Shown here: positions 1,188 through 61,967 of the stretch, in pieces
Layout of the letters: each line of letters begins with the position of its first letter
Position numbering within the stretch: position 1 is the first letter of the stretch
From: Nitrosopumilaceae archaeon
GTDB lineage: Archaea; Thermoproteota; Nitrososphaeria; Nitrososphaerales; Nitrosopumilaceae
Direction: 5' to 3'
Assembly: GCA_965208905.1 (NCBI GenBank)
Contig: OZ242365.1
Location: forward strand, 1,600,001-1,664,000
DNA: 64,000 nt
Made by a program: the position numbers and the translations under genes
The notes under the pieces: model-generated
The model's database searches: none
What the model was told of the DNA's origin: nothing
The model's input: only the letters and a program-made list of their open reading frames with translations

Positions 1188-3419
1188 TCAACTAATCATG
1201 GTAAGCCCGTTCTGCTTGGCAACCTGGTGTATGTTGTGTACCATCCCTTCCATCTCATTCTCATGTGATACAATGATGCACTGGCCAACCTTCAGTTCAT
1301 GCAGCACGTCCCTGAACGCGTGCATCTGCTGGCGTGAGAACCCTTCGGTAGGCTCATCCAGTATCAATATGTCTATGCCCTCCACCTGCTGATTCAGTGC
1401 CAGACGGTACGCCAGGGATACCGATGTACGCTCACCGCCAGAGAGATTTCTTACATTTTGTTATATGCCTGTCTGTGTTAACATGGGCTCAAACTTTTCG
1501 GATATATGCGATGTCTTTGTCGCATCATCTACCAGACGATTATACCAGTGCTTGTACTGTGTTGCAAACCTCTCACGTCTCTCATGCAGTATGTATTGTT
1601 CGATTGTCTCGCACGCGGGTATGAATTTGTCTACCAACCATGAGATTGAATCCTTGTGCTTTGTGTATGCTGCCTTATGTTTGGTCTGCTGTGCAATCTC
1701 GCCGCCCAGCCGTTCCTTCTCCTTGTTTAGATTCTCCAATCTCTCCTCATGCCTTGCCAACGAATCCCGCGCGGCCTGCAGGAGTTTGTTACTCTCATCC
1801 CGCTTTGCTCTTATCTGGGCTTCAACACCCCTGGCCTCATCCAACTCCCTGTGCAGGCCTGGCAGCTTCTGATGTTGTTCATTGTATTCGGCCATCTGCG
1901 TTTCTATCTCCTGCTTGCGCTTGTACAGCTCGGATATGCGCGCCGACACAATACTGATGGTCTTTTGCGCATCCCTATATGCGGTATAATCCCTGTCATA
2001 GTTGGCACGCCTGTCAATGTCGGCCCTCACTCCCTCTATGTTGGTCTGGGGCAGTGACTCCAACTGTACAGTACATTCCCGGCGCTTGGAGTTTAGCGTA
2101 TCGTACAATTCCTTGTTTGTATTATACGTGTTGAGTTCTGCCTTGTACCTGTCGAATAGTACCTTGTATTCATCATGTTTTACCTGTCGCGTATACAGTT
2201 CGTCCTCCGCACTCTGCAACTGGTCCGATATTGCCTGTATATTTGACTGGCGTTTGGATTTCAGTCCCTCCACATCATGTATCGTACCATCACAATACTC
2301 GCACTTTGCTCCCGTATTCTTTATGGACTCAAACAACTCCCTGGCGCGCTGCAGGTCTGCGCGCAGCCGGCCAACCTCCTCGGTATGCGCGGCTATATTC
2401 AGTGCCTCCATGTCTTTCTGTAGGGTGTTGCTTTCCGGCTTGCGCAGAGCGGGCATCTCATCAGTGTAGCGCCGTATCGCATCCTGTAGTGTGGTGTATC
2501 TGCTCTGTATGTTCTGCGCATCGTATAGGCGTTGCTGAAGTGTTTCGGCATCATCCACATCTATATCTGCGGGCTTTTTGCAACTCTCGGCCTGCTTTAG
2601 TTCCTCGGAATACTTGCGTATCCCATCCAGCGGGGATTCACCCTCCAGTTTTGATACATCCAGCGACTCTATCTGCCTTATCTCCATCTCAGACTCACGT
2701 ATGATGTCCTGTATCTGGGATAGGCGCGCATCATAGTTGTTGTTCTCGTATTGTATGATGGCTGTGCGCGTGGTACTACATACCTCCCCAAGGTTTAGTA
2801 TGTCTTTGCGTATTGTGCGTATTGTAGACTTGTTTGCATCCATATTTTCAAAGCGCGGAGCCAAGCCCACACACTCCTGTTTGAGATGTTTTATCATCTC
2901 CTTGGCGTTCTGTACGGCCGTTGAATAGTCCTGTATGCCAAAGGCTCGGCGTATCACCTCCTCGCGGCCCGTACCGTTTAGTATTGATTTTATCTCCTCC
3001 TGTGGGGTGTATATTGCGTAGCGGTACACCTTTGAGCGGCCGGTCTCACCAAAGCCCAGTATCTGCAGTATGCGGGTGTTGAGGTCCGATGCGGTCAGCA
3101 ACTCCGTTATGCCGTTGCATATGATGCATGTATCTGTCTGTGAGGCGTTGCCGCCCTTGATGCGTATGGTACGCTGTACCTCGTATGTGTCATCACCTAC
3201 CTTGAATTTCAGACTCACCTCTGCGCTGCTCTTGCCTTTTGAAACAAACCCATCAGATGATATGTATCCGAACCCAAACAAGGCAAACTCTATGCCCATC
3301 AGTATGGTAGTCTTGCCCGAACCCATGTCACCGCGATACAGCGTAATACCATCCTGGAAATCCAGCCTCGTATCCTGATGGGAGCGTATATTGTGCAGTT
3401 TCAATGATACCAGTCTCAT
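1188..3419 (-). pseudogene. rad50: Rad50 ABC-ATPase interrupted by an in-frame TAA at 1461-1463
   Basis: Walker A GDMGSGKT, Q-loop YTPQEE, coiled coil with CEYC zinc hook; after the TAA the same frame continues [12 protein letters not shown]...ILILDEPT...IIVSH (signature, Walker B, H-loop). Confidence 0.9.
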
Positions 3420-4495
3420 AATATGTCCACCCCGTCTCGTATGATGCGAGCCGCATAGTCACGCTTTGTCTCATTTTCGGGCTTCTCGTGGCGCAGCGTA
3501 TGTAGTAATGTGATGCCGCGTCTATCATCCCCCATGACTTCCTTCATGATGTCATCTTCCGTATCGTGCGGCGAACGCTCCGCATGCCGCGTGTTGTGTA
3601 GTGGGAGTGTTGTATCATCCTGTATCTTTGTGTATAGAGCGTCGGTCCTGATGCTTGATATATCCGGCGGGGTCGTAACCTCACCATGTATGCGCATGTA
3701 TAGTATCTTGCCTGGATACACAAAATCCCCATGTATGTCGTCCGGCGTGATGGACAGGTATTGGTATTGTGCCAGTTGTACCGGTATGAATTCCGGTTTG
3801 TAATCATCATATATGACATATCCGCGCTTCACCCCGCGCGCCGAATTATACATATCGTTGGGATGCCCGCCAAACAGCGTACCCGGATATATGATGTTTT
3901 TGTTATGCGTCTGGTAATCATGCATGTGGCCACCCAGGTATAGTTTGCAGTCGGCGGGCAGCATCTCTGCGCTCATCATATCATATGTGCCTGATATGTC
4001 CCCGTGAAACAGGAATATGTCCGGCTGGTTCTGTAGTATGTAATCTTTATCCAATATACGATATAGTTCCGCGTCCCGCCCGAGTTTCAACCCCGGCAGT
4101 CCCATTATGCAATACTCCCCTACATGTGTTGGTGTTGGACGCACCTTCCCTTCGTGTATCGTCGTATATGATAGCTTCTGCATCAAGCCTGCAGCCACCA
4201 GGACGTCTATGAAGGAGTTTGAGAGGGGTGAAAAGTCATGGGAACCGTATATCGTATACACCGGAATGTTGTTCTCCTTCAATCTCATCAGCTGTTTAAT
4301 CGCCAATTTTTGCACACGCACCTCGGGTATATTCACATGGAATGTATCCCCGCAGAACAGTACTACACCTACACCGCGCTGTATTATGTCTGATATCACA
4401 TACTCGAATGTCTCTGATTCCAGTTTTTGCAGCACTACATCTTTTTGGTATCCCAGATGCGTGTCTGCAAGGTGTGCTAGTGTAGCCGGTTTCAT
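3416..4495 (-). CDS. mre11: Mre11 nuclease
   Basis: Phosphoesterase motifs ADTHLG, GDTFH, GSHD, FHG, GHMH; start moved to 4495 (27 nt after CCTTAAAA); ATGA overlap with rad50. Confidence 0.92.
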   Translation of the reverse strand: MKPATLAHLADTHLGYQKDVVLQKLESETFEYVISDIIQRGVGVVLFCGDTFHVNIPEVRVQKLAIKQLMRLKENNIPVYTIYGSHDFSPLSNSFIDVLVAAGLMQKLSYTTIHEGKVRPTPTHVGEYCIMGLPGLKLGRDAELYRILDKDYILQNQPDIFLFHGDISGTYDMMSAEMLPADCKLYLGGHMHDYQTHNKNIIYPGTLFGGHPNDMYNSARGVKRGYVIYDDYKPEFIPVQLAQYQYLSITPDDIHGDFVYPGKILYMRIHGEVTTPPDISSIRTDALYTKIQDDTTLPLHNTRHAERSPHDTEDDIMKEVMGDDRRGITLLHTLRHEKPENETKRDYAARIIRDGVDIL

Positions 4496-4664
4496 ACCGT
4501 TATACTGCTTCATCGCTTTTAAGGAGGAAAGTGAGGTATTCGACTCAAAATATTACTTGATTGGTGGGAAGTAAAGTTCAGATTACTGGGTTCTCCCTAC
4601 AAAGTAGACTGGCCCATGACCATACCCCCCGCCTACGATGTATTTCTTACCTGGGCGTGTTACA

Positions 4665-5210
4665 TTATGGTGTGGGTTTTTTCTTGGCCTCTTCGATTAG
4701 TCTAAAAATACTTCTGCATAATAAGCCACCATGCCTATCCTTACCGAACTCTTCCACACAATCCCAATAGGCTGTTGCCATTCTGTCTAGATGTTCTTGC
4801 ATTCTCTTTTGTTTCCCTGATGGGTTGTTCCTGTTCATGGCTTTGAGCTCATCTATGATATACTCCATGGATTGTAACATGCCTTCCATTGCGTTTAATG
4901 TGGCATTTCGCTTATCTTTCCCCTTACGGACCTCAGCCCCCAAATATTGGTAATTGGCTATTGCGTGGCTTGCAATATCCAACATATGTGTATGTACATA
5001 TGGACTTTTCATGGGCCACACACCCATATTACACCGCAAATCGTCATCCACAAGTCGATAGTGGCCTTGTCCAACAGACAACATATACATCAACTCACCA
5101 ATTGGTTTACTAACATCATCATAGTGTGTTTTAGTGGCTAATTTCACCTGATTATCACCCACGCATGGGTTTTGAAAATATTTCCCAACCCTACGGGAAC
5201 ATTCTATCAC
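4665..5210 (-). CDS. Hypothetical protein inserted in the repair cluster
   Basis: 181-aa ORF, no recognisable motif. Confidence 0.55.
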   Translation of the reverse strand: MIECSRRVGKYFQNPCVGDNQVKLATKTHYDDVSKPIGELMYMLSVGQGHYRLVDDDLRCNMGVWPMKSPYVHTHMLDIASHAIANYQYLGAEVRKGKDKRNATLNAMEGMLQSMEYIIDELKAMNRNNPSGKQKRMQEHLDRMATAYWDCVEEFGKDRHGGLLCRSIFRLIEEAKKKPTP

Positions 5211-5502
5211 ACACGGCTATATACCACACCATCCTTGCCGCCCTCTCGGTATACGCACTCTCCATACACTCCTCCCAACTTGAAGACCCCTTCAATACTA
5301 ATCCTATATCTGGTGTTACCTCTACATCTGTCGTGGGGGTGTTTAAGAAAAGGAAACCGAGAGATATGATTATACCAACTATCAGTAACACAACACCGAG
5401 ACCCATCTTGGTACGGGGTAATACACAGAAAATCCCACCTGTTACGGTCATACATATTCCCAACATGAAGATGGGGGAGTGTATCAACAACTCAGTTGTC
5501 AT
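5191..5502 (-). CDS. Small membrane protein (2 TM)
   Basis: Two hydrophobic stretches; preceded by a G11 run on the coding strand. Confidence 0.5.
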   Translation of the reverse strand: MTTELLIHSPIFMLGICMTVTGGIFCVLPRTKMGLGVVLLIVGIIISLGFLFLNTPTTDVEVTPDIGLVLKGSSSWEECMESAYTERAARMVWYIAVCDRMFP

Positions 5503-5559
5503 TTAGAGTCCCCCCCCCCCAGTACCAGGATAGCCCACATCTTCAAACAAAAAATCCAA

Positions 5560-6982
5560 CTAACCTATCACCTTATAGTCTGCACGTTTTGACTCCCGCG
5601 CCTCAAATAGTGGAATTTTAATCGGTATGGCAAACGGCACGAACACGCTGGATATGATGGCCTCACCCTTGTCAAGTCCTGCGATATTCAGCATGTCTTT
5701 TGAGAGGTCTTGCGCAGCAGACTCTATTACGGCCTTGCGTTCCTGTATCATCTCGTTGCCGAGTATAATCTTCGTGCCCAGATTCGCCAGTATGTCCCGC
5801 GGTATCATGCTTGTAAGCTGGGTGATTGCCACCAGACCGACCTTGAACTTGCGTCCCTCACGCGCAATCGTACCGAACACATTGCCCTCACCCATGTCGT
5901 TTAGCACGCGCGGCGCCTCCTCAAGTATTATGGATGCTACCGGCAACTCGTGCAGTCTGCCTTCCCGCTGTGCCATACGGTAATGATACAGTATGCTATA
6001 CGCGAGCACAGAACCTATGAGCAACTCCTCCTTGTCGTCCAGCGTGGATGTATCTATCACAACCACCTCTCCCGCCGCAACAGCACCAACAATATCATGT
6101 ACGGTATTGCCGCCGTCCAGCGTAAATGTCTCCCCCCTTCCTATATTCAGGGCGCGCCCAATTTTTCTGCGCAGTACGAGTCGTGTCCTAAGCACGCGCG
6201 CATCCAAGCCCTCATCATCACTCTCATCGAATAATCTGGCAATCCAGTCTCTGCCGTGTCTGCTGTTCAACTCCCACACCATGTCTGACTGCGCATCAGA
6301 CAGTTCGACAACCCCCCCTTAGCTGTGAGGGATGTATGTGCTGCGTGCTTATCGCGAGGCTCTTCCCGTACTGTTTGAGATTCCTGCCGGCCTTTGGATG
6401 GCTATCCAGCGTATGATACTCGTTATGCGCATCCAGTACCAGCATGCCGACATCATTTGAGTCCAAAAGATTCCACAGTATGTTCTTTACCAGGTTTGAC
6501 TTGCCGCGGCCGGTCGTCGCGGGTATCAACACATGGTGCGAGAACACATCCTGAGCGTTGAGTTTCACATCAACCCCAAGCACCTTACTGCCGCTCCGTA
6601 TCATGCCCAGCGATAGATTGTTGCGCGGGTCGCCGGACAGAAACCTAAAGTCCTCATCTGACACATCATGTATCTCGCCAAGAAACTTGGGTAGTTTCTT
6701 TGTCTTGTGCACCTCGCCTCCCCGCACATCACACAGCGCCTTTACGGTACAGATGATATACTCTGTGTCTTCCCGCTCTATGAAGTCATCCATGTGCTGT
6801 ATAGACCCGGCCATCATGCCCCACAGGTTCATGTTGTTCTTGGGTGCGTACTGTATATCATATACCTGCAGTATGTTGTGTTTTGTCTTTAGCAGGTCGC
6901 CTATCTCTATATCATAGTCCTCGGCCTGCCGTATTATGATCTCATCAAACGCCCCACCCATTACGCGTCCCACAACAGTCAT
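5560..6982 (-). pseudogene. herA: HerA helicase/translocase split by a +1 frameshift in a G7 run (6312-6318)
   Basis: HAS barrel N-terminus, ATTGRGKS, LDAHNEY; second ORF has ILEEAP, IAREGRKF, AITQ; removing one G joins them (LRGVVELSDAQSDM). Confidence 0.9.
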
Positions 6983-7977
6983 CTGTTCACCTCGTTTAGT
7001 TTTTCATGCATCTCCATGTCGGCTATGTCGCGCTGTATGTCTTTGGAGAGGTTGTGCCGGATCTTCCACAATACAATCCTGCCCTCGTCCTTTCTTATCT
7101 TCGCCATATGGTCGGCGCGTATCAAACCCGTGGGATACCCGTACATGCGCACATCCTTTGAGTTGGCGCGTATGGTATTCACAATATCATGTATGTCTTG
7201 TGTGTCCAATGTATCATATGCCGCCTGATCTATATCCAGCAGGTATGGCCTGCTTTTTTCATGCAACATAACACCGAGTGTGGCAGCCGCATCGCGCACG
7301 TGCCCAATCCTGACAAACGCAGGTCCCCGTGAATGCATACTGCGCAGGTGTGATATCAGGGGCCTGCCGTTGTACATCGCGTTTGTGGTCTTTGCCAGGG
7401 CGCATACGACAACACCCTTGCGGTGTGCTGCATGGCATAATTCCGACATTAACTGACTCTCCTTCCCACCCCATGCGTTCAATGCCCCGTCCATGACCAG
7501 TATGTTTAGTCTGTCTTTACACTCCATCTCCTGAATGATTTTTGTTGCATATGTCCACTCCGAATATGAGCGCGCCATTGAATCATGTCTGTGCGTCTGC
7601 GGGGCGTGTATCAGGGCAGATGCATCGTTCAGTATACGCTCCGATACCAGATACCCGCGCTCGTCCCGGTGTATTGGATATATTGCATGTGTGATGGGAT
7701 CATACCGTATAAGCGAATAGAACGACACGCGCGGATACTCCCGTATACGGCTCATTCCATTGTACGTGGCGCCGAACAGCCGGTTTATCTCCAGGTGGCA
7801 GTACGGCGTGTGCAGTATGCTCATGTTGCCGCCATCCACAAATGTACAATCCAGTGTGGTGTTTGACTGGATTGGCTCAAAACCATCGTCTATCCTTACA
7901 CTACCGCCAATTCCATCAAACGGTATGCGGTTTATCTCCTGTATGACGGCCTGCCGTATAACAGATACTGTACTCAT
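6979..7977 (-). CDS. nurA: NurA nuclease
   Basis: FVDGG, MDGAL, LAKTT, GYPxxLxxAD motifs; directly upstream of herA; start MSTVSV 27 nt after CCTTATA. Confidence 0.85.
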   Translation of the reverse strand: MSTVSVIRQAVIQEINRIPFDGIGGSVRIDDGFEPIQSNTTLDCTFVDGGNMSILHTPYCHLEINRLFGATYNGMSRIREYPRVSFYSLIRYDPITHAIYPIHRDERGYLVSERILNDASALIHAPQTHRHDSMARSYSEWTYATKIIQEMECKDRLNILVMDGALNAWGGKESQLMSELCHAAHRKGVVVCALAKTTNAMYNGRPLISHLRSMHSRGPAFVRIGHVRDAAATLGVMLHEKSRPYLLDIDQAAYDTLDTQDIHDIVNTIRANSKDVRMYGYPTGLIRADHMAKIRKDEGRIVLWKIRHNLSKDIQRDIADMEMHEKLNEVNR

Positions 7978-7998
7978 ACCCTCCTGATGCACGATACA

Positions 7999-8046
7999 AT
8001 ATAAGGCGCAATATGGCATTTTCCACACCCATATAGCGCCTTAAAT
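7999..8046. promoter_or_regulatory. Back-to-back promoters for nurA-herA and radA
   Basis: CATATAGCGCCTTAAA (+) and CATATTGCGCCTTATA (-), 28 and 27 nt from the respective ATGs. Confidence 0.8.
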
Positions 8047-8068
8047 GGAACGACACTTTACACTGCCA

Positions 8069-9043
8069 ATGGAAGATATACAACTTGACAGTCTGGAGGG
8101 CGTCGGACCGGTAACCGCACGCAAACTGGCTGAAGCAGGCATACACAACATCATGGATTTGGTAGTGCGGGGGCCCATTGAGATCTCCAACATCACAAGC
8201 ATGGAGAAGGAGGCTGCCGAAAAGCTGGTCACCAAGGCCAGAAAACATCTATCCGAAAGCGGGCAACTGGCAAAAGAGTTTGTCAGTGCGGCAGAAATCT
8301 ACAAACGTCGACAAGAGATAGGAAAGATATCCACCGGAACCGACTGCCTCGACACGCTGTTTGGCGGAGGCGTTGAGACGCAGGCCCTTACCGAGGTATA
8401 TGGTGAGTTTGGCTGCGGTAAGACCCAATTCTGCCACACCCTATGCGTCATGGTACAAAAGAGCATACAGGACGGCGGCCTTGGGGGCGGCGTGCTGTAT
8501 ATGGACTCTGAGAATACCTTCAGGCCTGAAAGAATAGCCTCTATTGCCAAGGCCAATGGCATGGACCCACAGCGCATACTGGAGAACATCATAGTGGCCC
8601 GTGCATACAACAGTGCCCATCAGATACTCATACTTGAGGAGGCCGGTGCGATAATACGTGAGAATAACATCAAGCTACTGGTGGCAGATTCGGCAGTCGG
8701 TCTGTTCAGATCCGAGTATCTGGGACGCGGCACACTGTCCGAGAGGCAGCAGAGATTAAACCACTTTGTGCACCTGTTGGTGCGCATAGCCGAGACGTAC
8801 AATGTTGCCGCGGTGGCCACCAACCAAGTGATGTCATCCCCGGATTCGTTCTTTGGGGATCCGACAAAGCCCATTGGAGGCAATGTGGTGGCTCATACCA
8901 GCACGTACAGGGTTTACTTTAAAAAGTCCGGCAAAAAGAGGATAGCCCGCATGGTGGACAGTCCGCACCATCCCGAGGAGGAGACGATGTTCGCCATAAG
9001 CGAGGCGGGCATAATCGACCCCGTAGAGCCAAAAACCAAGTAA
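8069..9043 (+). CDS. radA: Archaeal RadA recombinase
   Basis: HhH N-terminus LEGVGP, GEFGCGKT, TFRPERI, GRGTLSERQQ, PIGGNVVAH; start MEDIQL 28 nt after TTAAA; T-rich terminator 9044-9055. Confidence 0.97.
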   Translation: MEDIQLDSLEGVGPVTARKLAEAGIHNIMDLVVRGPIEISNITSMEKEAAEKLVTKARKHLSESGQLAKEFVSAAEIYKRRQEIGKISTGTDCLDTLFGGGVETQALTEVYGEFGCGKTQFCHTLCVMVQKSIQDGGLGGGVLYMDSENTFRPERIASIAKANGMDPQRILENIIVARAYNSAHQILILEEAGAIIRENNIKLLVADSAVGLFRSEYLGRGTLSERQQRLNHFVHLLVRIAETYNVAAVATNQVMSSPDSFFGDPTKPIGGNVVAHTSTYRVYFKKSGKKRIARMVDSPHHPEEETMFAISEAGIIDPVEPKTK

Positions 9044-9060
9044 TTTTTTTGTTTTATTTG

Positions 9061-9170
9061 ACCGGGGATCACCCCCCGGCAAGGTTTGCCGTGTAGGCAA
9101 ACCAGCAACATACAGCAGGGGCGCCGGACACTGACCCACGTGTGTGCTAGGACGTAAAGTCTCGCCCGGC
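9061..9170 (-). ncRNA. Structured small RNA: GCCGGGC pseudoknot plus two 3' hairpins, the last CRISPR-repeat-like
   Basis: Starts exactly 28 nt after GCGCCTTATA; GCCGGGC pairs with GUCCGGC; GGUUUGCC/GGCAAACC and CCGGGG/CCCCGG stems; no credible ORF. Confidence 0.7.
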
Positions 9171-9224
9171 CCTATGGATGCTGCGTGGCACAATATAAGG
9201 CGCTATGTGGCTTTGGGTCGAAAT

Positions 9225-9506
9225 TATTCAGTCGTATCTACAAGAGCATTCGGCGTGGTCAGGGGTTGACTGTAGCCGTTCCACGGAACCGTCCGTCATT
9301 GTTTTGGCGATGTCATGTGTATGGTGAAGTTATGGACATCCTACCACGCCTGCCTTTCGGCCAACCGAGGCTGTCCAGTGTACAGAAGTCATGTGTTTGT
9401 TGATGTTACGAAATAGTACGAGTACTACTGCTAGATGTTGTGACATGCATCGAGTGACAGTCCTCGGGCTTATTGTATGCCGTCTGTGTCGATGATGTGG
9501 CTTCAT
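9225..9506 (-). ncRNA. ~280-nt highly structured RNA candidate
   Basis: Own promoter (CCCTTAAACG, 28 nt); long-range stems 9456-9467/9365-9375 and 9340-9350/9252-9263, GCC-GAAA-GGC hairpin 9352-9361; a weak 58-codon ORF (9506-9330) is the alternative. Confidence 0.55.
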
Positions 9507-9590
9507 GCCAAGGTAGCAGATCGGTTACGTTTAAGGGAGTATATGGCTTTGGACTGATGGTGACTATAGTCCCACAACATCATAAAATTT

Positions 9591-9670
9591 AACCGGGGGC
9601 TTTGGGCCCCCGGCAAGGTCTGGGGGACTACCGCCCCCGACCTAGGCGCATACGCCGGCACCTACCATAA
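9591..9670 (-). ncRNA. Three-hairpin small RNA ending in a CRISPR-repeat-like stem-loop
   Basis: CCTTTAAA box ~30 nt upstream; stems UAGGUGC/GCGCCUA, GGUC-GGGGGC/GUCCCC-GACC (bulged), CCGGGGGC/GCCCCCGG; same ACCUUGCCGGGGG junction as the 9061 RNA. Confidence 0.6.
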
Positions 9671-9704
9671 GACGGTATGATACATATCGATTGCATTTAA
9701 AGGA

Positions 9705-11141
9705 CTATGTGGCTTTTGTACCCGAGCCGCCACCGGCCTTGCCCATGGCTGCGCCGGCAGCCCCGGCAGGCTTTGCACCAGCACCCATGCTACCCATGCC
9801 AAGTCTTCCCGCGCCCGCGCCAACTGCACCCTGCGCAGTCTGTATCATGCTGGTGAACGAGCCGGTAACCTGCTGTATAATCGTAGCAAATGCGCCCAGC
9901 GATACAATGGGTATGGCTATTGCCATCGACATTATGCCCGTGCCGAACATCCATACAACCAGTACGTCATTCCCATAGTCGGACAACAGCAGCCCGACCA
10001 TCAGCTCTGATGATATGCTGAACAGTATGGCCATCTCTATTGGGTATAGTATGGCGGCCGCCAGTGATGCGGGGCCGTATGTTGTCAGCACCTGCTTTAT
10101 CCTTCCGCCGCCGTGCATATGCTCCCAGGGCATCAGCATAAGCAGAAGGTATGCCGGCACAAACACGAGCATTGTGGCTGTTGCCACATCCACTGCGACG
10201 TTTGATATAATCATGCCCGTACCGGTCATTATTACGGCCTGCGCCTTTATCATGCCGAACAGTATGTTCACGATAAACTCGCCAAAGCCCCTGTACATCC
10301 AGTCGGCCGCATTGTCCCAGTGTGAGGTAATGGTCTCCCAGAAGGAGCCGGATACATCAACGGGTGGCGGTATGGCCTTTGTATTGCCGCCCCACTGCTC
10401 CAGCATGTATCGGACGCGCAGTTCCGGCTGGCACATCGCATCCAGTTTACCGGTCTTGTCCTGCATGAGCAAATACCGTGTTGCATGATAGTGTTTCTGC
10501 AGGGCCTCGTTGTCCGTATCCAGCACGCCGTTTGTATACCACTGCGGGGGGCACGGATACTCCCTGTTGCCGGAGTATGCGTTGTTTAGTATCTTTGTCG
10601 ATACCCACTCCGAACCGTCTATCGAATAATCCCATATGGGCGGTAGTATGAACAGTATCACAATGCACAGTACGCACCTTGATGGCAGGCTTGACATCCA
10701 CACGTATGCCCAGTGTGACCCGCGCGGGTCTGCGCCAAACCCCACCGTACCATAGTTTTCCCCCCGCCGCATCATGGTTTTTTTGGGCCTCATCATCGGA
10801 TGTACGCCGTCTGTGACCTCCTGTGTATGTTCGCCCTCCATTACATATGATGCCCTGTGTCCGAAACGGCCGGTTATCAGCCAGGCTATCGCGCCCAGGC
10901 CTATTATACCATACAGGACGGCCTCGCGCTGCTGCTTGAATACATGAAACAGCATGTTGCCGTTCTCCCCCGTGTGATCCAGACTGTACTCGAAGTCCGG
11001 CATGTCTATCAGTATATCTACCAGGTTTTCGACCAGAAAGTCCTTGATGATACCGGATATCGTGATTATGGTTACCACAAGCGCCAGTATGATTGCCAGG
11101 TCAAGCACGATCTGCACGACAAAGAGGATTGGCAGCGCCAT
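9705..11141 (-). CDS. VirB6/TrbL-like polytopic membrane protein (paralog 1)
   Basis: Many TM segments, Gly/Ala-rich tail; shares PPIWD and CxPxLRVxY with 58518..61202. Confidence 0.65.
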   Translation of the reverse strand: MALPILFVVQIVLDLAIILALVVTIITISGIIKDFLVENLVDILIDMPDFEYSLDHTGENGNMLFHVFKQQREAVLYGIIGLGAIAWLITGRFGHRASYVMEGEHTQEVTDGVHPMMRPKKTMMRRGENYGTVGFGADPRGSHWAYVWMSSLPSRCVLCIVILFILPPIWDYSIDGSEWVSTKILNNAYSGNREYPCPPQWYTNGVLDTDNEALQKHYHATRYLLMQDKTGKLDAMCQPELRVRYMLEQWGGNTKAIPPPVDVSGSFWETITSHWDNAADWMYRGFGEFIVNILFGMIKAQAVIMTGTGMIISNVAVDVATATMLVFVPAYLLLMLMPWEHMHGGGRIKQVLTTYGPASLAAAILYPIEMAILFSISSELMVGLLLSDYGNDVLVVWMFGTGIMSMAIAIPIVSLGAFATIIQQVTGSFTSMIQTAQGAVGAGAGRLGMGSMGAGAKPAGAAGAAMGKAGGGSGTKAT

Positions 11142-17635: not shown

Positions 17636-18169
17636 ATGGAATCCATTATCGACAACGTAAACATCACAATGCATGACAAGCTAATAGAACGGCTTGCCGG
17701 TGCACACACATTGGACATTGCAGTTGGGTATTTTCATGTCAGCGGGTTCAACGAGTTAATCAGACACATGAACGGTGTGCGGATGCGTCTGGTAATGGGT
17801 AACGAGACGGATGCCGATACGGCAGCCCACCTGCGCAAAGGCCACAAGCCAAAGACCAAGTGCAAGCCGGTGCCAACCGAATTATACGAATTCATAAAAT
17901 CCGGCAGGCTCAAAGTCCGAATATACACGCACAGTAAGTTTCACGCCAAGGCGTACATTATACAGGATAGTTGTGCGTTTGTCGGCTCCTCAAATTTGTC
18001 AAAGGCAGGCCTTGGCCGGGGAAGCAGCAACCTGGAACTAAATTTGATGGTGTCAAGTATAGATGAGTTGTCAGCATGGTATGAAAACATCTGGAATGAG
18101 TCTGTACATTATAATTCCAAACTCATCAAGGTTCACCGGCGCAGATACAGACGCTCAAGGAGGCTGTAA
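17636..18169 (+). CDS. Stand-alone PLD (HKD) nuclease domain
   Basis: IAVGYF, FHAKAYIIQD, GSSNLS, NLELN. Confidence 0.85.
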   Translation: MESIIDNVNITMHDKLIERLAGAHTLDIAVGYFHVSGFNELIRHMNGVRMRLVMGNETDADTAAHLRKGHKPKTKCKPVPTELYEFIKSGRLKVRIYTHSKFHAKAYIIQDSCAFVGSSNLSKAGLGRGSSNLELNLMVSSIDELSAWYENIWNESVHYNSKLIKVHRRRYRRSRRL

Positions 18170-18187
18170 AATTAACGATGTTTATCG

Positions 18188-18574
18188 TTAGTCTATGAGT
18201 TTATTCCATGTTATCTGCGTCGCACCATGTGTAGCCCTGCCGCGTATGTTGATTGACACCTGTACCGGTTCGCCATCCCACAAATAGTGGTATTCGGCCT
18301 TTCTGCCGAACCGCGCAGAGAGTATTGTATAACCCGTATACTTTGGAAAAGATTCGGCTACATCCATGCATCGCTCTATCTGATGCGCAGGTATCCGTAC
18401 AGTATCACGTATGGTGGTCTTGAGTTCATGTACATGTATCCTGTCTGTTCCAACGGCAAGTATGTCTGGCAGGCCGTTTGATGATGCTCCCAGTCTCCAT
18501 GCGCGCCATCCACATCGTACATACCGTTTGGCTAGGTCGTTCTCGAATCTGTATCCCCTTGTACGGCCACTCAC
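18188..18574 (-). CDS. hjc: Hjc-like Holliday junction resolvase
   Basis: GYRFE, LPDILA, HELK PD-(D/E)xK motifs; GTG start 28 nt after CCTTTAACG. Confidence 0.8.
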   Translation of the reverse strand: MSGRTRGYRFENDLAKRYVRCGWRAWRLGASSNGLPDILAVGTDRIHVHELKTTIRDTVRIPAHQIERCMDVAESFPKYTGYTILSARFGRKAEYHYLWDGEPVQVSINIRGRATHGATQITWNKLID

Positions 18575-18797
18575 TGTATGGTAGCGTATCGGGTGCGTTA
18601 AAGGGCGGTGTTGGGTTTTGCACTCCTTAAAAGGCTCTGATGTGCTACCACAACATGCAATTATGTCCAATATGCGAACGCAAGGCCAGGCAGGTGGACT
18701 TTAACCACGATGCCAACTATCGGGAGTTCGTTTGCCATACATGCAAGATAAGATTCAGAACACGGTTTTGGTAACCAAAAGGTTGGCCAGATTGCGC

Positions 18798-19208
18798 CTA
18801 TGGTCCCACCTTGGCTAACAACTCCTCATAGGTCATCATGTCCGGTTGTGTGGTATTTGATGGTGGCTGCGCACACTGTATTGTAGCGTTGTATATCTGC
18901 GCGTTTGCAGGCGTACCAGGTACGGGACTCACCCAGGCTACGGACAATACGGGACACCTGGGAGCGTCATCTGATACATATATCAAATCATTTCCAGCTG
19001 CCAGCATCCCCAGTATTGCATTTGGTGTTGTGCCGGATACTGCGGGTTCGATCCCACCAATAAATGAGTCATTGAGCCACACACGTACAGTAACAGGGTA
19101 GTATTCGGATGTTCCGCCATACCCGCCGCCACCTATTATGTATGCGGATACGCCACACATGACTGCAACGCCCATAATGCATAACCCTACGCGCAGAACG
19201 CGGTTCAT
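18798..19208 (-). CDS. N-terminally anchored membrane/exported protein
   Basis: Hydrophobic N-terminus; ATGA overlap with peptidase stop. Confidence 0.55.
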   Translation of the reverse strand: MNRVLRVGLCIMGVAVMCGVSAYIIGGGGYGGTSEYYPVTVRVWLNDSFIGGIEPAVSGTTPNAILGMLAAGNDLIYVSDDAPRCPVLSVAWVSPVPGTPANAQIYNATIQCAQPPSNTTQPDMMTYEELLAKVGP

Positions 19209-19735
19209 AAAAGCAGGCCCACTACAATACCGGCAAAGACAATCGATGTGACCATTGGAAGTCCGGGATACACTATCGCGCCCGCAGGCACGGAATCCAT
19301 TCTGCCGGTTGCAGGATCCACACAGAATCTGTCGCCTTCGCGCTTCTGATACCTGTATAGTCTGAGGGGAAATCCAAGTCCGGGCCGCCGTACACACAAT
19401 ACAACATGACTGCACATCAGGGGCACCATACCGCCGACTATACAATACACTACCGCCATCGGATGTATTGTACATATGGCCATCGATATGCCTGCAACGA
19501 ACCACCAGTCGCCACTCCCCATCATCCGCCTAAATACGAATGCCACACCACCCACACTCCCCCCCATTATGCCGCTGGTGACGACCTCCTGCATGCTGCC
19601 TGTCAGTGCATGCATGATGAATACCGCGCAGCCGACTACAAGTGCAGCTACACATGATTCCAGTGATACGGTTCTGTATTTTGCATCAGATATGGCTGCC
19701 GGTATCATGCACAACAAAGCCAGAAGCCATTCCAT
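19205..19735 (-). CDS. Prepilin peptidase (A24, FlaK/PibD-like)
   Basis: SDxKYRTV, MGSGD, PGLPMV, multiple TMs. Confidence 0.8.
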   Translation of the reverse strand: MEWLLALLCMIPAAISDAKYRTVSLESCVAALVVGCAVFIMHALTGSMQEVVTSGIMGGSVGGVAFVFRRMMGSGDWWFVAGISMAICTIHPMAVVYCIVGGMVPLMCSHVVLCVRRPGLGFPLRLYRYQKREGDRFCVDPATGRMDSVPAGAIVYPGLPMVTSIVFAGIVVGLLL

Positions 19736-19746
19736 GCACGGTAGAA

Positions 19747-20100
19747 TTATTCATTACGTTTAAGCGGCGATATGACATCATGCTCAAAGTGCAGCAACAT
19801 CCTGTTCATGTACAGGGAGATATGCACCCTGTCGCCCTTCCGTATCATACCCGACAGTTTTTTTGGGAGTGATATCACCCAGTAATATCTATACATTATG
19901 CCGCATAACTCCCGTATCTTTACTATGCGTATTGGTATGCCGTCCACATTGTCTATGCGGAATGTATCAGAATTATGTATGTTGATGTATGCATCCTCAC
20001 CGTTTTGTTCAATGTATTTTTTGGCCTGTTTGAACGGCAATCGCAGCCGGTAATATGGTGTGCCATCTATATACTGCATCTGCACACGCCTCACCTTCAT
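19747..20100 (-). CDS. Possible tandem AbrB/SpoVT-like regulator
   Basis: YRLRLP.K and VISLPKK...KGDRVHISL; start MKVRRV. Confidence 0.5.
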   Translation of the reverse strand: MKVRRVQMQYIDGTPYYRLRLPFKQAKKYIEQNGEDAYINIHNSDTFRIDNVDGIPIRIVKIRELCGIMYRYYWVISLPKKLSGMIRKGDRVHISLYMNRMLLHFEHDVISPLKRNE

Positions 20101-20167
20101 ACCGTATAATGCATTTGGGGTTCGCAAAAAGGTTAACATTTTTGCGTTTGTGCGCGCATTATATGTC

Positions 20168-21163
20168 ATGTGGTGCAGCATACGACTGGTCGAACACCAA
20201 CAAGAGAAGCGAAAGGAGTTGGTGCAGTCGATACTCTCCTATGTGAGACTTGCGGCATTCCTCACGTACAGGGATGTAGAGGGCTTCGTACGGTATTCAA
20301 TCTGGTTTGAGGACCAGTATCTGAGTTATGTGCTGGGGCTGCATGCGGCCAAGCCAGATCTGGGAGGTGTTGAGATTACACCGACTGATACGCCATCCAT
20401 ATTGGAGAACTGCATGATTGCCCAGGAGATGGAGATGCGTGGGTACGGGGCTGCCGAACTACCGCTTGATACGGGCATACGCTCGGCGACCGCCGCACTG
20501 GGTACGCAGATTACCGACACAGCATACAGGCTGCTGATATGCCACAGGGTTGAACGGTCTGATTTGATCGACGGGTACGTAAACAGTGGAGGCAGGCCGA
20601 CATCAATGTACAGGAAGGTGGCGGGCATGGCTGCGCGCGAGGCCATGGGATTCTTTGACAGCTCGCCCAGGCCTGCGGCTGAAAAACCCACCATCGATGC
20701 CAAAAAACCGCCATACACGCATACGCGCATCATACTGGGGGCGAATACCGAAGAGCACATAACAATACTTCGTGACTCATTTCCCGCCGGCAGTCTGAAG
20801 AGACTGAACCGCATACCGCCCGTACAAGTGGCCGCGCAGGCATGTATAATACCAAAGGTGCGGACAAGCATGATTCACTTTCCCGTGTTCAATGATGCCG
20901 AACTGGAGAGTCTGGAGATCCTGCCGACCAATGTGACCGAAGTTCCCATGGAGTACGGACGCGCCATCACATCCACAACGCAGCCCCCCACCGTATTTAT
21001 GGATTTGATAAACGACATAATACATACATCCATGCCCAGGCGCGTCCCGCTATATCTGGACATATCCGAAGAGCCCGACGACGCATCAATGCAGCCTGAG
21101 TTTCCAGTACAAATCATAGGCGGTGAACCCGAGTTTCCCATCAGTATGATTCCACACGCCTGA
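20168..21163 (+). CDS. Hypothetical protein, possibly transfer-associated
   Basis: Long ORF; start 29 nt after the box in palindromic CGCAAAAAGGTTAACATTTTTGCG. Confidence 0.6.
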   Translation: MWCSIRLVEHQQEKRKELVQSILSYVRLAAFLTYRDVEGFVRYSIWFEDQYLSYVLGLHAAKPDLGGVEITPTDTPSILENCMIAQEMEMRGYGAAELPLDTGIRSATAALGTQITDTAYRLLICHRVERSDLIDGYVNSGGRPTSMYRKVAGMAAREAMGFFDSSPRPAAEKPTIDAKKPPYTHTRIILGANTEEHITILRDSFPAGSLKRLNRIPPVQVAAQACIIPKVRTSMIHFPVFNDAELESLEILPTNVTEVPMEYGRAITSTTQPPTVFMDLINDIIHTSMPRRVPLYLDISEEPDDASMQPEFPVQIIGGEPEFPISMIPHA

Positions 21164-21196
21164 CGTGTGGCAGTGTGTCAACAAGCTCCGCCCGGC
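21152..21196 (-). ncRNA. Possible minimal member of the GCCGGGC pseudoknot family
   Basis: GCCGGGC 28-29 nt after TTTAA; CCACAC/GUGUGG hairpin with loop GUCAGGC (6/7 complementary to 5' end). Confidence 0.4.
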
Positions 21197-21288
21197 CACA
21201 CCATATATTGCATGATTGTGTTAAAGACGCATTGTGGGATTAACGATGCCCATGCGCGTACAACCGGCCTTACCGGCCAACCAATAAT

Positions 21289-21504
21289 ATGGATGCGCTC
21301 GTACAATCTAGCATTCTGCACAACCTCCTCACACTCTTACTAACAGATACAGTAATGTGGACTATTGGATCACTTGCAATTCTCTTTGGGGCGACAATAA
21401 TAATCACTGTTGTGATAACCAGTGTTGGATATGAGTTATATTTTGCAAGTTCACAAGTTGTTATATGGGTTTGGATATACCAAACACTGAGAAATATCGT
21501 GTAA
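21289..21504 (+). CDS. Small membrane protein
   Basis: Highly hydrophobic 71-aa ORF. Confidence 0.4.
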   Translation: MDALVQSSILHNLLTLLLTDTVMWTIGSLAILFGATIIITVVITSVGYELYFASSQVVIWVWIYQTLRNIV

Positions 21505-35815: not shown

Positions 35816-36622
35816 ATGAGTGCACAATTCCAGGTGAGCAGCGGCAGAAATCAGTACCATCTAATCCCGTATGTTGGCAACAAGTCTGGATTCTCCCACA
35901 TATTTGACAGTCTTATCCCGAATTCAATACGGGGGAAGAATATATTTGATCTGTTCGGTGGCGGGGGGTCGTTCTCCATATACTGTTCGTACAGGTTTGG
36001 CGCCAAATACGTCACGTATAACGACAATAATCCAATAATCACCAATTTTATCGACTGGGTCAGGAGAGATCCAAGGGAACTGGCAGCAGAATACAACACA
36101 CACAGGGAAAAATCAGACAATCAATACTATCTGGGTATACGCGACATGTCGCTGGATGATGGTGTGGTTGGGGCGGGGAGATTCCTGTATCTGGCAAAGA
36201 ACGCATTCTCAGGCAAGATTCGCTTCAACAAACACAATAAATTCAACTCGCCCATGAGGAAAGACTCCAAATGCCCGAATCTGGATGTCGGGCAGTTTAT
36301 GCGCATAAGTGATGCAATACGGGAGATGACAATAACAAATGAGAGTTTTGAGCATTATGTTGATGTTCATGACGGGTTTGTCTATCTGGATCCCCCATAC
36401 ATGGAGAATCCAAACAACCACTACAACGGTGTACCCGATACCGAAGATTTCATCGACTTTGTCAGGAGGGTGGGCAAGCATAACCTGGTGATGATATCCG
36501 AGCAGAATAGGGTTGAACTGCCTGCATCATTTCAAATACATCGCATATTACTGAGGCGTTCACTTCAATACAGAACGCAGACAGACAGTAGGGAGATAAT
36601 CGCCATTAATTACCGCACATGA
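35816..36622 (+). CDS. Dam/D12-class adenine methyltransferase, no adjacent cognate nuclease
   Basis: PYVGNK, DLFGGGGS, DPPY. Confidence 0.9.
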   Translation: MSAQFQVSSGRNQYHLIPYVGNKSGFSHIFDSLIPNSIRGKNIFDLFGGGGSFSIYCSYRFGAKYVTYNDNNPIITNFIDWVRRDPRELAAEYNTHREKSDNQYYLGIRDMSLDDGVVGAGRFLYLAKNAFSGKIRFNKHNKFNSPMRKDSKCPNLDVGQFMRISDAIREMTITNESFEHYVDVHDGFVYLDPPYMENPNNHYNGVPDTEDFIDFVRRVGKHNLVMISEQNRVELPASFQIHRILLRRSLQYRTQTDSREIIAINYRT

Positions 36623-36795
36623 TGGGGGGCTGGTAAGAAACGCTGACCTAATCGTCGTTGTTAGTTGGTGGGTGTGCGTTGCTTTTGAGCAGACCGCCGA
36701 ATGATACCAAGCAGACTACCAACAACCATGATGTAGGTCACATCTATCTGTCACGCCGAACAGTACTACAAGCAGCATGGTAGTGAGTAACCCCA

Positions 36796-61631: not shown

Positions 61632-61967
61632 ATTTCAATGGGCCGGGGGCTTTTGCCCCCAGAAAGGATGAAGAAGTCACACGAGGCCGAGATTGAGAAG
61701 ATACTTCAATGGGGCCGGAGGTTTTCACCCCCGGAAAGACTGTGAATACTTCCATCATCCTGTTGTTCACCCCGTCCAACATAGTAATCATCACGTTTAA
61801 GGTTCCATATAACAACGTACATAATGTATGAATCATGGTCTACTTCAATGGGGCCGGGGACGTTCACCCCAGACACCCTCAACAACGTACATAGTTTATG
61901 AATCTCATTTCAATCTGGTCGGGGGTTTCACTCCCAACATACTCAACAACGTACATAAGATATGAAT
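61632..61967 (-). CRISPR. Orphan degenerate CRISPR mini-array with type I-G-like repeats
   Basis: Repeats 61632-61668, 61703-61740, 61842-61877, 61907-61942 (best GTCTTTCCGGGGGTGAAAACCTCCGGCCCCATTGAAGT); 34-nt spacer 61669-61702; no cas genes in window. Confidence 0.75.

What the first reader, a model, noticed from the sequence alone, without database searches (positions are those of the whole stretch)
9044..9704. Three tandem ncRNA genes behind radA; two end in a CRISPR-repeat-like hairpin (possible crRNA mimics)
Seen: this 660-bp gap has three minus-strand promoters (boxes at 9198, 9534, ~9700), each followed by structured sequence. The flanking RNAs both end hairpin-UUG-hairpin. The 9.6 kb one, CCTTGCCGGGGGCCCAAAGCCCCCGG, closely resembles array repeat CCTTTCTGGGGGCAAAAGCCCCCGG (61667-61643). 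The 9.07 kb one, CCTTGCCGGGGGGTGATCCCCGG, resembles CTTTCCGGGGGTGAAAACCTCCGG (61738-61715). Both lack the ATTGAAR handle. Established: Cas6-family proteins (Csb2 in type I-G) bind and cut such hairpins, and mobile elements use solitary repeat units as RNA anti-CRISPRs. Inference: structured RNAs with a Cas6-binding tail that decoy host Cascade or borrow Cas6 for 3' maturation.
Basis: partly seen in the sequence, partly recalled or inferred. Interest (0 to 1): 0.85.

Follow-up and report, generated by a model that had tools for sequence, protein, structure and literature searches.

The report
Small RNAs ending in CRISPR-like hairpins
A mobile genetic island in an ammonia-oxidising archaeon seems to make two short, tightly folded RNAs whose last hairpin looks like part of a CRISPR repeat, so they might blunt the host's CRISPR defence, but this is untested.

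Summary
The gap 9044-9704 carries three tandem copies of one promoter module, with TATA boxes at 9198, 9534 and 9701 on the minus strand. The box-to-start spacing fits this genome's own promoter geometry. Units A (about 9673 to 9583) and C (about 9170 to 9050) fold well and both end hairpin-UUG-hairpin. Unit B folds no better than shuffled sequence.

This radA is a second copy inside an accessory island with conjugation genes (TFIIB, VirB4-like ATPase, MCM). The genome carries archaeal amoA.

The host has one type I-G CRISPR-Cas system (Cas3, Cas8g, Csb1, Csb2, Cas4-Cas1) and a 128-repeat array. The RNA tails share the 5' flank and the CCGGGG/CCCCGG stem typical of type I-G repeats and of the island's mini-array. 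They lack the GGCCCCATTGAAG part. That stem occurs nowhere else in the genome.

The resemblance is statistically modest (14.8 and 14.6 bits; genome E about 7.5). I found no homologues, no RNA data and no host spacer against the island.

Verdict: A and C are plausible island RNAs with a repeat-derived 3' hairpin. The layout recalls the RNA anti-CRISPR RacrIF1. Decoy function is unproven (about 0.2-0.3). Plain terminator or stability hairpins remain an equal rival.

The parts
9044..9059 (+). T-rich run directly after the radA stop codon. It is the likely termination signal of the radA paralogue and lies upstream of the C-tail hairpin on this strand.
   Evidence: Read from the sequence. That archaeal termination uses oligo-T tracts is recalled knowledge.
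9695..9716 (-). Promoter module alpha, with TTTAAA at 9701-9696. Its upstream part overlaps the last codons (TKAT*) of the 478-aa membrane gene 9705-11141.
   Evidence: Repeat family D1/D2, the 5-copy alignment A2 and the genome-wide TATA spacing.
9583..9673 (-). Predicted RNA A, about 90 nt. The start is inferred at G 9673, 28 nt after the box. It ends at a U4 tract, 9586-9583.
   Evidence: MFE -46.7 kcal/mol, z -3.1, 0 of 200 shuffles fold as well. A terminator-like site was called at 9614-9592 on the minus strand.
9617..9642 (-). RNA A penultimate hairpin (GGUC GGGGGC .. UCCCCC A GACC), followed by UUG at 9616-9614.
9593..9613 (-). RNA A terminal hairpin, CCGGGGGCC-CAAAG-CCCCCGG. With the 5' flank CCTTG (9618-9614) it resembles the 5' two-thirds of a type I-G CRISPR repeat.
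   Evidence: 19 of 21 against mini-array repeat R1. 14.8 bits with model R2, which was built from 14 bacterial type I-G repeats.
9529..9550 (-). Promoter module beta, with TTAAAC at 9534-9529.
9215..9506 (-). Unit B. It starts with a leaderless ATG at 9506 and has a 58-codon ORF (9330-9506) with no relative found in the comparisons made here. It is not structured and has no T4 tract before unit C.
   Evidence: z = +0.11. The first ~25 nt are shared with the genome 2134 kb copy. No tblastx match to the Zn-ribbon ORFs of related elements.
9193..9214 (-). Promoter module gamma, with TTATAT at 9198-9193.
9050..9170 (-). Predicted RNA C. The start is inferred at G 9170-9172. It runs about 109 nt to the base of the last hairpin. 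No U-tract follows until 9037-9033, which lies inside radA antisense.
   Evidence: MFE -48.4 kcal/mol, z -2.0, 8 of 200 shuffles fold as well. The whole-region fold shows a long 5' hairpin plus the two tail hairpins.
9083..9103 (-). RNA C penultimate hairpin (GGUUUGCC UACAC GGCAAACC), followed by UUG at 9082-9080.
9062..9079 (-). RNA C terminal hairpin, CCGGGGGG-UGAU-CCCCGG, with 5' flank CCTTG (9084-9080).
   Evidence: 14.6 bits with model R2. CCGGGG..CCCCGG hairpins occur only here and in RNA A in the 2.2-Mb genome.
61634..61946 (-). The comparison object: the island's mini-array of 4 degenerate type I-G-like repeats. They share 5' TTTCC and 3' GGCCCCATTGAAG with the host repeat but have G-rich stems.

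Best explanation
The gap is the non-coding end of a conjugative-element-like island in an ammonia-oxidising archaeon.

One island-specific promoter module is present three times in tandem. Elsewhere this module drives leaderless small ORFs. Copies alpha and gamma have no start codon at the start site. They drive two paralogous, highly folded small RNAs: A of about 90 nt and C of about 110-140 nt.

Each RNA ends in hairpin-UUG-hairpin. The last hairpin carries the 5' flank, the CCG/CGG stem base and the G-rich 7-bp stem typical of type I-G CRISPR repeats. It lacks the 3' GGCCCCATTGAAG part. I read it as a repeat-derived, solitary-repeat-like hairpin.

Inferred mechanism: the Cas6 domain of the host's Csb2 binds this 3' hairpin. 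The RNA then either ties up Csb2 (and perhaps Csb1) in dead-end complexes, as RacrIF1 does with Cas6f and Cas7f, or gains a protected 3' end.

Unit B is most likely a decayed leaderless small ORF or a read-through leader of C.

Shown here: the repeats, the folds, the promoter geometry, the host type I-G system and the island context. Inferred: transcription, RNA ends, Csb2 binding and any anti-CRISPR effect.
For: Promoters.
- Three module copies here plus two elsewhere in the genome, with an ATG 28-29 nt downstream in 3 of the 5 copies.
- The same spacing is the genome-wide peak across 1386 ORFs.
- Relative G009 has TTAAAC about 29 nt before the Zn-ribbon ORF that follows its homologue of the 478-aa gene.

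Structure.
- z-scores of -3.1 (A), -2.0 (C), and -3.1 and -4.1 for the two tails.
- The penultimate hairpins differ completely in sequence, yet both sit between a conserved GGU and ACC-UUG.

Link to CRISPR repeats.
- CCGGGG..CCCCGG hairpins occur only at the two tails in the 2.2-Mb genome. G5/C5 hairpins occur at 9 loci: 4 have tRNA T-arm-like loops, and 3 of the other 5 are in this window.
- Tail A is the best genome-wide match to mini-array repeat R1, at 19 of 21 positions.
- Repeats of the form TTTCC-GGGG..CCCC-GGCCCCATTGAAGC were found in 37 loci of bacterial genomes. One such array (L051) sits beside Csb1, Csb2 and Cas4-Cas1.
- A model built only from 14 such bacterial repeats (5' flank plus hairpin) ranks R1, R2, tail A and tail C as the top four hits of the window. 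Both tails score above the genuine repeat R3. In the whole-genome search, R1, R2 and tail A are the only three hits at E 10 or below.
- Genuine type I-G repeats within the genus (G000, G003, G006) vary freely in the inner stem but keep the CCG/CGG base and the TT flank. The tails keep these too.

Host system.
- One type I-G locus plus a 128-repeat array.

Literature (passages read).
- Csb2 binds the hairpin alone and not the handle.
- In RacrIF1 the stem-loop is essential and the handle dispensable.
- Thaumarchaeal conjugative elements carry TFIIB, VirB4 and VirB6, and sometimes stand-alone arrays with host-like repeats (PMC6563490).

One weak correlation.
- G009 has a related element but no Csb2. 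It carries Zn-ribbon ORFs where the RNAs sit here.
Against: - The similarity is not significant by profile methods. An nhmmer profile of full repeats gives tail C E = 98 and does not list tail A among 159 hits.
- Rfam gives no CRISPR-DR hit at E 10 or below.
- Model R2 gives a genome-wide E of about 7.5 for tail A, and window E of 0.22 and 0.25 for the two tails.
- The inner stem (GGGG/CCCC) differs from the host repeat (AGAC/GUCU). The 3' third of the repeat is absent.
- Tail A is also a textbook hairpin plus U-tract.
- No homologue of the gap or its tails was found. The whole-gap DNA search found 0 of 40 relatives. The tail pattern found 0 of 400 family genomes and 0 matches in the metagenome and genome collections. 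It gave 3 hits in IMG/VR, all inside longer GC-rich or coding-looking sequence. Covariation therefore cannot be tested.
- None of the 127 host spacers matches the island, so no ongoing conflict is visible.
- The two tails are paralogues, not independent observations.
Confidence: 0.3

Rival explanations
1. A and C are real island transcripts, but the terminal hairpins are only 3'-end or terminator and stability elements. Their likeness to CRISPR repeats is a by-product of a short G/C-run stem. No Cas protein is involved.
For: - Tail A is a GC hairpin followed by UUAAAUUUUAU and is called terminator-like.
- Profile E-values for repeat likeness are not significant.
- There is no handle.
- No host spacer matches the island.
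Against: - Tail C has no U-tract after its hairpin.
- This stem type is used nowhere else in the genome as a gene end.
- The 5' flank CCTTGCC and the stem base match the repeat family.
- From recall: archaeal termination needs oligo-T, not hairpins.
Confidence: 0.33
2. The gap is non-functional debris. It holds tandem partial duplications of the end of the 478-aa gene with its downstream promoter, plus decayed solitary repeat units, left at the edge of a rearranging island.
For: - The module overlaps the gene's last codons, and a 34-aa remnant of that gene end sits at 36790-36891.
- B is unstructured.
- The island holds several other degenerate repeat units.
- Nothing is conserved outside close strains.
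Against: - Both TATA boxes in alpha and gamma are canonical and correctly spaced.
- A and C fold better than shuffles.
- The two tails keep stems and flanks while their loops differ (families D4 and D6).
- A strain about 98% identical, from another study, keeps the whole gap on one contig. Its 3 reported indels lie in a loop or in G/C runs of the tail hairpins. These could also be homopolymer assembly errors.
Confidence: 0.22
3. The hairpins act at the DNA level, for example as an origin of transfer, a nick site or a recombination site of the conjugative element.
For: - They lie next to the conjugation-type membrane gene, at an island junction where synteny with relatives breaks.
- There are two direct copies of the hairpin flanks 531 bp apart.
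Against: - No relaxase or integrase was seen among the ORFs scanned. Not every ORF was scanned.
- The motif occurs at no second site such as the other island end.
- The promoter modules point to transcription.
Confidence: 0.07
4. A and C are crRNA-like regulators (CreA or crlRNA type) that guide the host Cascade to a partly matching promoter.
For: The island holds degenerate repeat-spacer-repeat units whose 'spacer' recurs at 58392-58429 and at genome 2134771-2134809.
Against: - A and C have no 5' handle and no spacer-like unpaired segment.
- No complementarity of 15 nt or more to any other genome site was found.
Confidence: 0.04

Closest known systems
RNA anti-CRISPRs (Racrs), that is solitary repeat units on mobile elements, e.g. 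RacrIF1 (PMC10651486; abstract and passages read)
   Same: - Encoded on a mobile element, away from cas genes.
- A predicted promoter, then about 80-110 nt of RNA, then a repeat-like stem-loop at the 3' end.
- In RacrIF1 the stem-loop is the essential part and the handle is dispensable.
- The host has the matching CRISPR subtype family.
   Different: - Racr candidates were picked for similarity to the whole repeat. Here only the 5' flank and stem are alike, the inner stem differs from the host repeat, and the 3' third is missing.
- The upstream RNA is tightly folded, which would hinder a Cas7 filament.
- The host is an archaeon with type I-G. 'I-G' occurs 0 times in that paper's main text. Its supplements were not seen.
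- Nothing has been tested here.
Stand-alone or mini CRISPR arrays on archaeal viruses and thaumarchaeal integrative-conjugative elements (PMC6563490, passages read; PMC6858448, search listing and abstract start only)
   Same: The island carries such a mini-array (61634-61946) with host-like repeat flanks. The RNA tails resemble its repeats.
   Different: A and C are single hairpins without handle or spacer. They are 531 bp apart and each has its own promoter, so they are not an array.
Type I-G CRISPR repeat hairpin bound by Csb2 (10.1101/2022.08.08.503147; passages read)
   Same: - A roughly 7-bp stem with a CCG/CGG base and a TT-containing 5' flank.
- Csb2's Cas6 domain binds the hairpin product alone.
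   Different: - No CCCC-AUUGAAGC follows the stem, so the published cleavage site (4 nt 3' of the stem) has different letters: UUAA/UCAA, then AU.
- Whether this host's Csb2 tolerates these stems is unknown.
Hairpin plus U-tract intrinsic terminators
   Same: Tail A fits the pattern.
   Different: Tail C has no U-tract. There is a second hairpin joined by a conserved UUG. The stem type is unique in the genome.

Membership tests
Racr / solitary repeat unit | Sequence and structure similar to the cognate CRISPR repeat of the host | tested here: inconclusive
   The 5' flank, stem base and stem length agree. Tail A scores 19 of 21 against island repeat R1, and the tails score 14.8 and 14.6 bits with the type I-G hairpin model. 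However, the full-repeat profile and Rfam CRISPR-DR models do not find them, the inner stem differs from the host repeat, and the 3' third is absent.
Racr / solitary repeat unit | Promoter within about 250 bp upstream | tested here: met
   Predicted only. Canonical TATA boxes lie 108 and 136 nt upstream of the hairpin ends. The module is conserved in 5 copies and its spacing equals the genome-wide peak. No RNA data exist.
Racr / solitary repeat unit | Encoded on a mobile element, not next to cas genes | tested here: met
   The island carries TFIIB, a VirB4-like ATPase, MCM and defence genes. It is absent from the closest relative G005. The cas locus lies about 615 kb away.
Racr / solitary repeat unit | Bound or processed by the host Cas6-type enzyme and inhibits interference | not testable with these tools
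   This needs Csb2 binding and cleavage assays and an interference assay.
Type I-G CRISPR repeat | A 36-37 nt unit of the form (A/G)TTTCC + stem + GGCC(C/T)CATTGAAG(C/G) | tested here: not met
   The tails end in GGTTAAATTTT and GGTCAAATAAA. Genuine repeats of the host, G003, G006 and 14 bacterial arrays all keep the 3' part.
Type I-G CRISPR repeat | Stem of about 7 bp with an invariant CCG...CGG base | tested here: met
   Tails: CCGGGGG..CCCCCGG and CCGGGG..CCCCGG. The family alignment A1 and the genus repeats show the same base.
CRISPR array | Regularly spaced repeats separated by unique spacers | tested here: not met
   The two hairpins are 531 bp apart and each follows its own promoter.
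Intrinsic terminator (hairpin + U-tract) | GC-rich stem followed within 0-2 nt by a T-rich run | tested here: inconclusive
   Met for tail A. Not met for tail C on either strand.
Known RNA families (Rfam 15) | Match at the gathering score | tested here: not met
   0 matches in the window. In 8900-9900 the only matches have E 1.4 or worse. No tRNA was found.

The most novel reading that the evidence does not exclude
An archaeal conjugative element encodes handle-less, hairpin-only mimics of type I-G CRISPR repeats as the 3' ends of small structured RNAs. They are driven by an element-specific promoter module, perhaps read by the element's own TFIIB. They titrate the host's Csb2 (a Cas5-Cas6 fusion). 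This would be the first RNA anti-CRISPR in archaea and for type I-G, and a minimal form that needs only the Cas6-binding hairpin.
Probability: 0.2. Interest if true: 0.8.

Novelty: new variant of a known kind. Interest (0 to 1): 0.55.

Why it matters
RNA anti-CRISPRs have so far been shown in bacterial phages and plasmids. The main text of the founding paper does not mention type I-G.

If these RNAs bind Csb2, three things would follow:
- Mobile elements of ammonia-oxidising archaea fight, or borrow, host CRISPR machinery with RNA.
- A bare Cas6-binding hairpin is enough, without the handle.
- There would be a simple sequence signature for finding more such RNAs: an element promoter, a folded RNA, then a repeat-type stem without a handle.

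If they do not bind Csb2, the locus is still a clean example of one promoter module reused for coding and non-coding units in a thaumarchaeal mobile element.

Tried and rejected
Searches and tests that led nowhere.
- Known RNA families: Rfam at gathering score over the window gave 0 matches. At E up to 10 over 8900-9900 it gave only chance-level hits. ARAGORN gave 0. By eye there is no C/D-box D motif (CUGA) after the AUGAUGU at 9584-9578.
- Coding readings of the gap: six-frame translation, plus tblastx and blastn against the Zn-ribbon ORF regions of G009 and of window 36892-37240. tblastx gave nothing better than E 0.02. blastn matched only the shared promoter module. The 58-aa ORF of B was not searched against protein databases.
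- Homologues of the gap. DNA search of 40 relatives found 0. The tail pattern found 0 of 400 family genomes, 0 in metagenome contigs and 0 in genome contigs. In IMG/VR it found 3 hits, all inside longer GC-rich or coding-looking sequence with no further likeness.
- The promoter module found 0 in IMG/VR. It found 11 metagenome hits, none sharing the sequence after the box, which I judged to be chance.
- RNA evidence: no RNA holder is listed for this stretch. Only DNA contigs could be laid. The substitution list of the related strain was cut off, so covariation could not be read.
- Antisense targets of A, B and C in the genome: nothing beyond 13-16 nt chance matches, apart from the paralogous promoter and leader at 2134 kb.
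- Host spacers against the island: 0 of 127 with a meaningful match.
- Full-repeat nhmmer profile: it does not recover the tails.
- Covariance model R1 was built with a structure line shifted by one column. That was my error. I discarded it and used R2.
- G006 test: a hairpin with the exact stem of G006's own repeat lies in the gap upstream of G006's homologue of the membrane gene. G006 is 67% G+C in that locus, and the reversed control pattern hit 13-14 times, so I do not count it as support.
- Literature search for thaumarchaeal promoter and leaderless data gave nothing usable. I replaced it with the genome's own statistic.
- Supplements of the papers were not seen. The candidate table of the Racr paper may list type I-G or archaeal candidates.
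Full report
WHAT IS THERE

The gap between the stop codon of radA (8045-9043, +) and the stop codon of a 478-aa membrane-protein gene (9705-11141, -) is 660 bp. On the minus strand it holds three direct copies of one module, AAAGCCA(C/T)ATA..CCTT(A/T)(A/T)A, at 9716-9695, 9550-9529 and 9214-9193.

The module occurs only twice more in the 2.2-Mb genome, at window 36880 (+) and at genome 2134732 (-). In those two copies and in the middle copy here, an ATG lies 28-29 nt after the first T of the box.

I tested whether that spacing means anything in this organism. Over 1386 long ORFs, TATA-like hexamers peak sharply with their first T 28-30 nt before the ATG, at 35-41 counts against a background of 1-7. 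Leaderless transcripts from a box at about -28 are therefore the norm in this genome, and the module has the right geometry. In relative G009, the homologue of the 478-aa gene is likewise followed by TTAAAC about 29 nt before a small Zn-ribbon ORF.

In copies alpha (9716) and gamma (9214), no ATG stands at the predicted start. These two units look like non-coding derivatives of a promoter for a leaderless small gene. The predicted starts are G 9673 and G 9170-9172.

THE THREE UNITS

- Unit A (9673 to about 9583, about 90 nt) folds at -46.7 kcal/mol, z = -3.1.
- Unit C (9170 to about 9050) folds at -48.4 kcal/mol, z = -2.0.
- Both end in hairpin-UUG-hairpin. In A: 9642-9617, UUG, 9613-9593. In C: 9103-9083, UUG, 9079-9062. 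The tails alone give z = -3.1 and -4.1.
- The penultimate hairpins have unrelated stem sequences, but both sit between GGU and ACC-UUG. The last hairpins share their flanks and stem ends while their loops differ (families D4 and D6).
- Unit B (9506-9215) folds no better than shuffled sequence, z = +0.11. It begins with a leaderless ATG and a 58-codon ORF. Only its first ~25 nt are shared with the 2134-kb copy. It has no T4 tract before unit C.

So 'three ncRNA genes' becomes two candidates plus one doubtful unit. Rfam finds nothing at gathering score and only chance-level hits below it. There is no tRNA.

CONTEXT

The genome carries archaeal amoA. The radA in the window is a second copy. The copy syntenic with the closest relative, G005, lies at genome 2193868-2195091 and is 97.8% identical in protein, against 89% for the window copy. 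In five genomes of the genus, radA is followed by a small convergent ORF and not by these RNAs.

The first 20 kb of the window are hardly shared with relatives, apart from radA itself. The window encodes:
- Rad50, Mre11, a split HerA and a NurA-like protein to the left of radA.
- To the right, a Fic protein and a TFIIB homologue.
- A VirB4-like conjugal ATPase and an MCM helicase.
- An IS66 transposase and several restriction or defence gene sets.

This matches the published picture of thaumarchaeal integrative-conjugative elements, which all carry TFIIB and sometimes stand-alone CRISPR arrays with host-like repeats (PMC6563490, passages read). The 478-aa protein has no Pfam or NCBIfam match. 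It has weak relatives in 6 of 300 genomes of the order.

THE CRISPR LINK

The host has one array of 128 repeats at genome 981217-990460. The repeat is ATTTCCGAGACATTTTTGTCTCGGCCCCATTGAAGC. It is flanked by Cas4-Cas1, Cas3, a Cas8g2-like protein, Csb1 and Csb2, so this is type I-G. Only one Csb2 was found in the genome.

The island's 'array' at 61634-61946 (-) has four degenerate repeats. They share TTTCC and GGCCCCATTGAAG with the host repeat but have G-rich stems. Rfam CRISPR-DR16 hits two of them below threshold.

A scan of one genome per species found repeats of the form TTTCC-GGGG..CCCC-GGCCCCATTGAAGC in 37 loci of bacterial genomes. One array (L051) sits beside Csb1, Csb2 and Cas4-Cas1. 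A second (L054) sits beside a Cas3 with helicase and HD-domain matches. The G-rich stem therefore recurs widely in this repeat family. Within the genus, the repeats of G000, G003 and G006 differ freely in the inner stem but keep the CCG/CGG base and the flanks.

HOW ALIKE ARE THE RNA TAILS?

For the resemblance:
- CCGGGG..CCCCGG hairpins occur only at the two tails in the whole genome. G5/C5 hairpins occur at 9 loci. Four have T-arm-like loops, and three of the other five are in this window.
- Tail A is the best genome-wide match to the flank plus stem of repeat R1, at 19 of 21 positions. Three simulated genomes gave no hit at 18 or more.
- A covariance model made only from 14 bacterial type I-G repeats (5' flank plus hairpin, model R2) ranks R1 (22.4 bits), R2 (19.9), tail A (14.8) and tail C (14.6) as the top four of the window. 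Both tails score above the genuine repeat R3 at 12.7. In the whole genome, only R1, R2 and tail A reach E 10 or below.

Against the resemblance:
- Those E-values are not significant. Genome-wide, tail A has E about 7.5. In the window the tails have E 0.22 and 0.25.
- A profile of full repeats misses the tails.
- Tail C against R2 stays below 16 of 19.
- The 3' third of the repeat is absent.
- The two tails are paralogues, so they count as one observation.

MECHANISM

Published biochemistry makes the decoy idea workable.
- Csb2 cuts 4 nt 3' of a 7-bp stem. Its Cas6 domain binds the hairpin product alone with a Kd of 43 nM and does not bind the 8-nt handle (10.1101/2022.08.08.503147, passages read).
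- RacrIF1 consists of a promoter, about 70-76 nt of RNA and a repeat stem-loop. The stem-loop is essential and the handle is dispensable. The resulting complex lacks Cas5 and Cas8 (PMC10651486, passages read).

A and C have this layout, with 81 and 109 nt from the predicted start to the 3' base of the hairpin.

Points against, or unknown:
- Whether this host's Csb2 tolerates the G-rich inner stem.
- The upstream RNA is tightly folded.
- No host spacer targets the island.
- Tail A is equally a hairpin plus U-tract terminator. Tail C is not.

NO COMPARATIVE OR EXPRESSION EVIDENCE

The gap has no relative in 40 related genomes, 400 family genomes, IMG/VR, the metagenome collection or the genome collection. 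No RNA run is listed.

A strain about 98% identical, from a different study, keeps 8320-9734 on one contig with 28 substitutions and 3 indels. The indels fall in the loop of C's penultimate hairpin and in G/C runs of two tail hairpins. They may be homopolymer errors. The substitution list was truncated.

VERDICT

But the likeness is modest and nothing functional has been shown.

My estimates are as follows:
- A and C are real transcripts: about 0.6.
- The terminal hairpin derives from a type I-G repeat: about 0.5.
- The RNAs act through Csb2: about 0.2-0.3.

The closest known kind is the Racr or solitary repeat unit. This would be a handle-less, archaeal, type I-G variant of it. The tails are not members of the repeat family proper, because the 3' part was tested and is not met.

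Noticed in passing
window 1461-9043; genome 2193868-2195091: The window's radA is a second copy. It sits beside Rad50, Mre11, a HerA split into two ORFs (5560-6282 and 6296-6982) and a NurA-like gene, all within the accessory island. The native radA, syntenic with relative G005, lies elsewhere in the genome.
   Followed up: partly
window 61634-61946 (-): A mini-array of four degenerate type I-G-like repeats without cas genes. Two of its 'spacers' are near-copies of each other (..TTCATA.A.TATGTACGTTGTTGAG), so part of it is a tandem duplication of repeat plus spacer. One spacer region also contains a copy of the promoter box with its downstream sequence (CCTTAAACGTGATGATTAC).
   Followed up: partly
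window 58362-58430 (+); genome 2130864-2130895 (+), 2104280-2104309 (-), 2134771-2134809 (-): Further solitary repeat units with the proper CCCCATTGAAG end and G-rich stems, or fragments of them. Some are followed by the same ~30-nt 'spacer' or by a TATA-containing segment (AGTYCCTTAWATGGGATG). These are better Racr-type candidates than the RNA tails.
   Followed up: partly
window 36790-37037 (+): A 34-aa remnant of the C-terminus of the 478-aa gene, 88% identical. It is followed by the promoter module and a 37-aa Cys-rich (Zn-ribbon-like) leaderless ORF. This is the arrangement seen intact in relative G009.
   Followed up: partly
window 58120-58360 (+) and genome about 2130780-2130860 (+): Iterated GGAGTGGAAA / GGAATGGAAA motifs and repeated GGTCAGCAC..TTCCCA units upstream of a solitary repeat unit. 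They look iteron-like, perhaps an origin or a regulator-binding region.
   Followed up: no
window 17636-24161, 35816-36622, 46399-54584, 62031-63811: A dense defence cargo: a PLD-type nuclease, an MmeI-type restriction-modification enzyme, a DNA methyltransferase-like ORF, a DUF499 / DUF1156-methylase / SNF2-helicase set, and a NotI-family endonuclease next to a 298-aa ORF that was not scanned. An IS66-family transposase lies at 42133-43848.
   Followed up: no
L085 (G006:C1:371522-371542): In relative G006, which has type I-G, a hairpin with exactly the stem of G006's own repeat (CCGCGGC..GCCGCGG) lies in the gap upstream of its homologue of the membrane gene. The locus is 67% G+C and the reversed control pattern hit 13-14 times, so this may be chance.
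   Followed up: partly
window 9567-9576 vs 9621-9630: A 10-nt segment just after RNA A's U-tract is 90% complementary to the 3' arm of A's penultimate hairpin. This is a possible alternative pairing on read-through, or chance.
   Followed up: no
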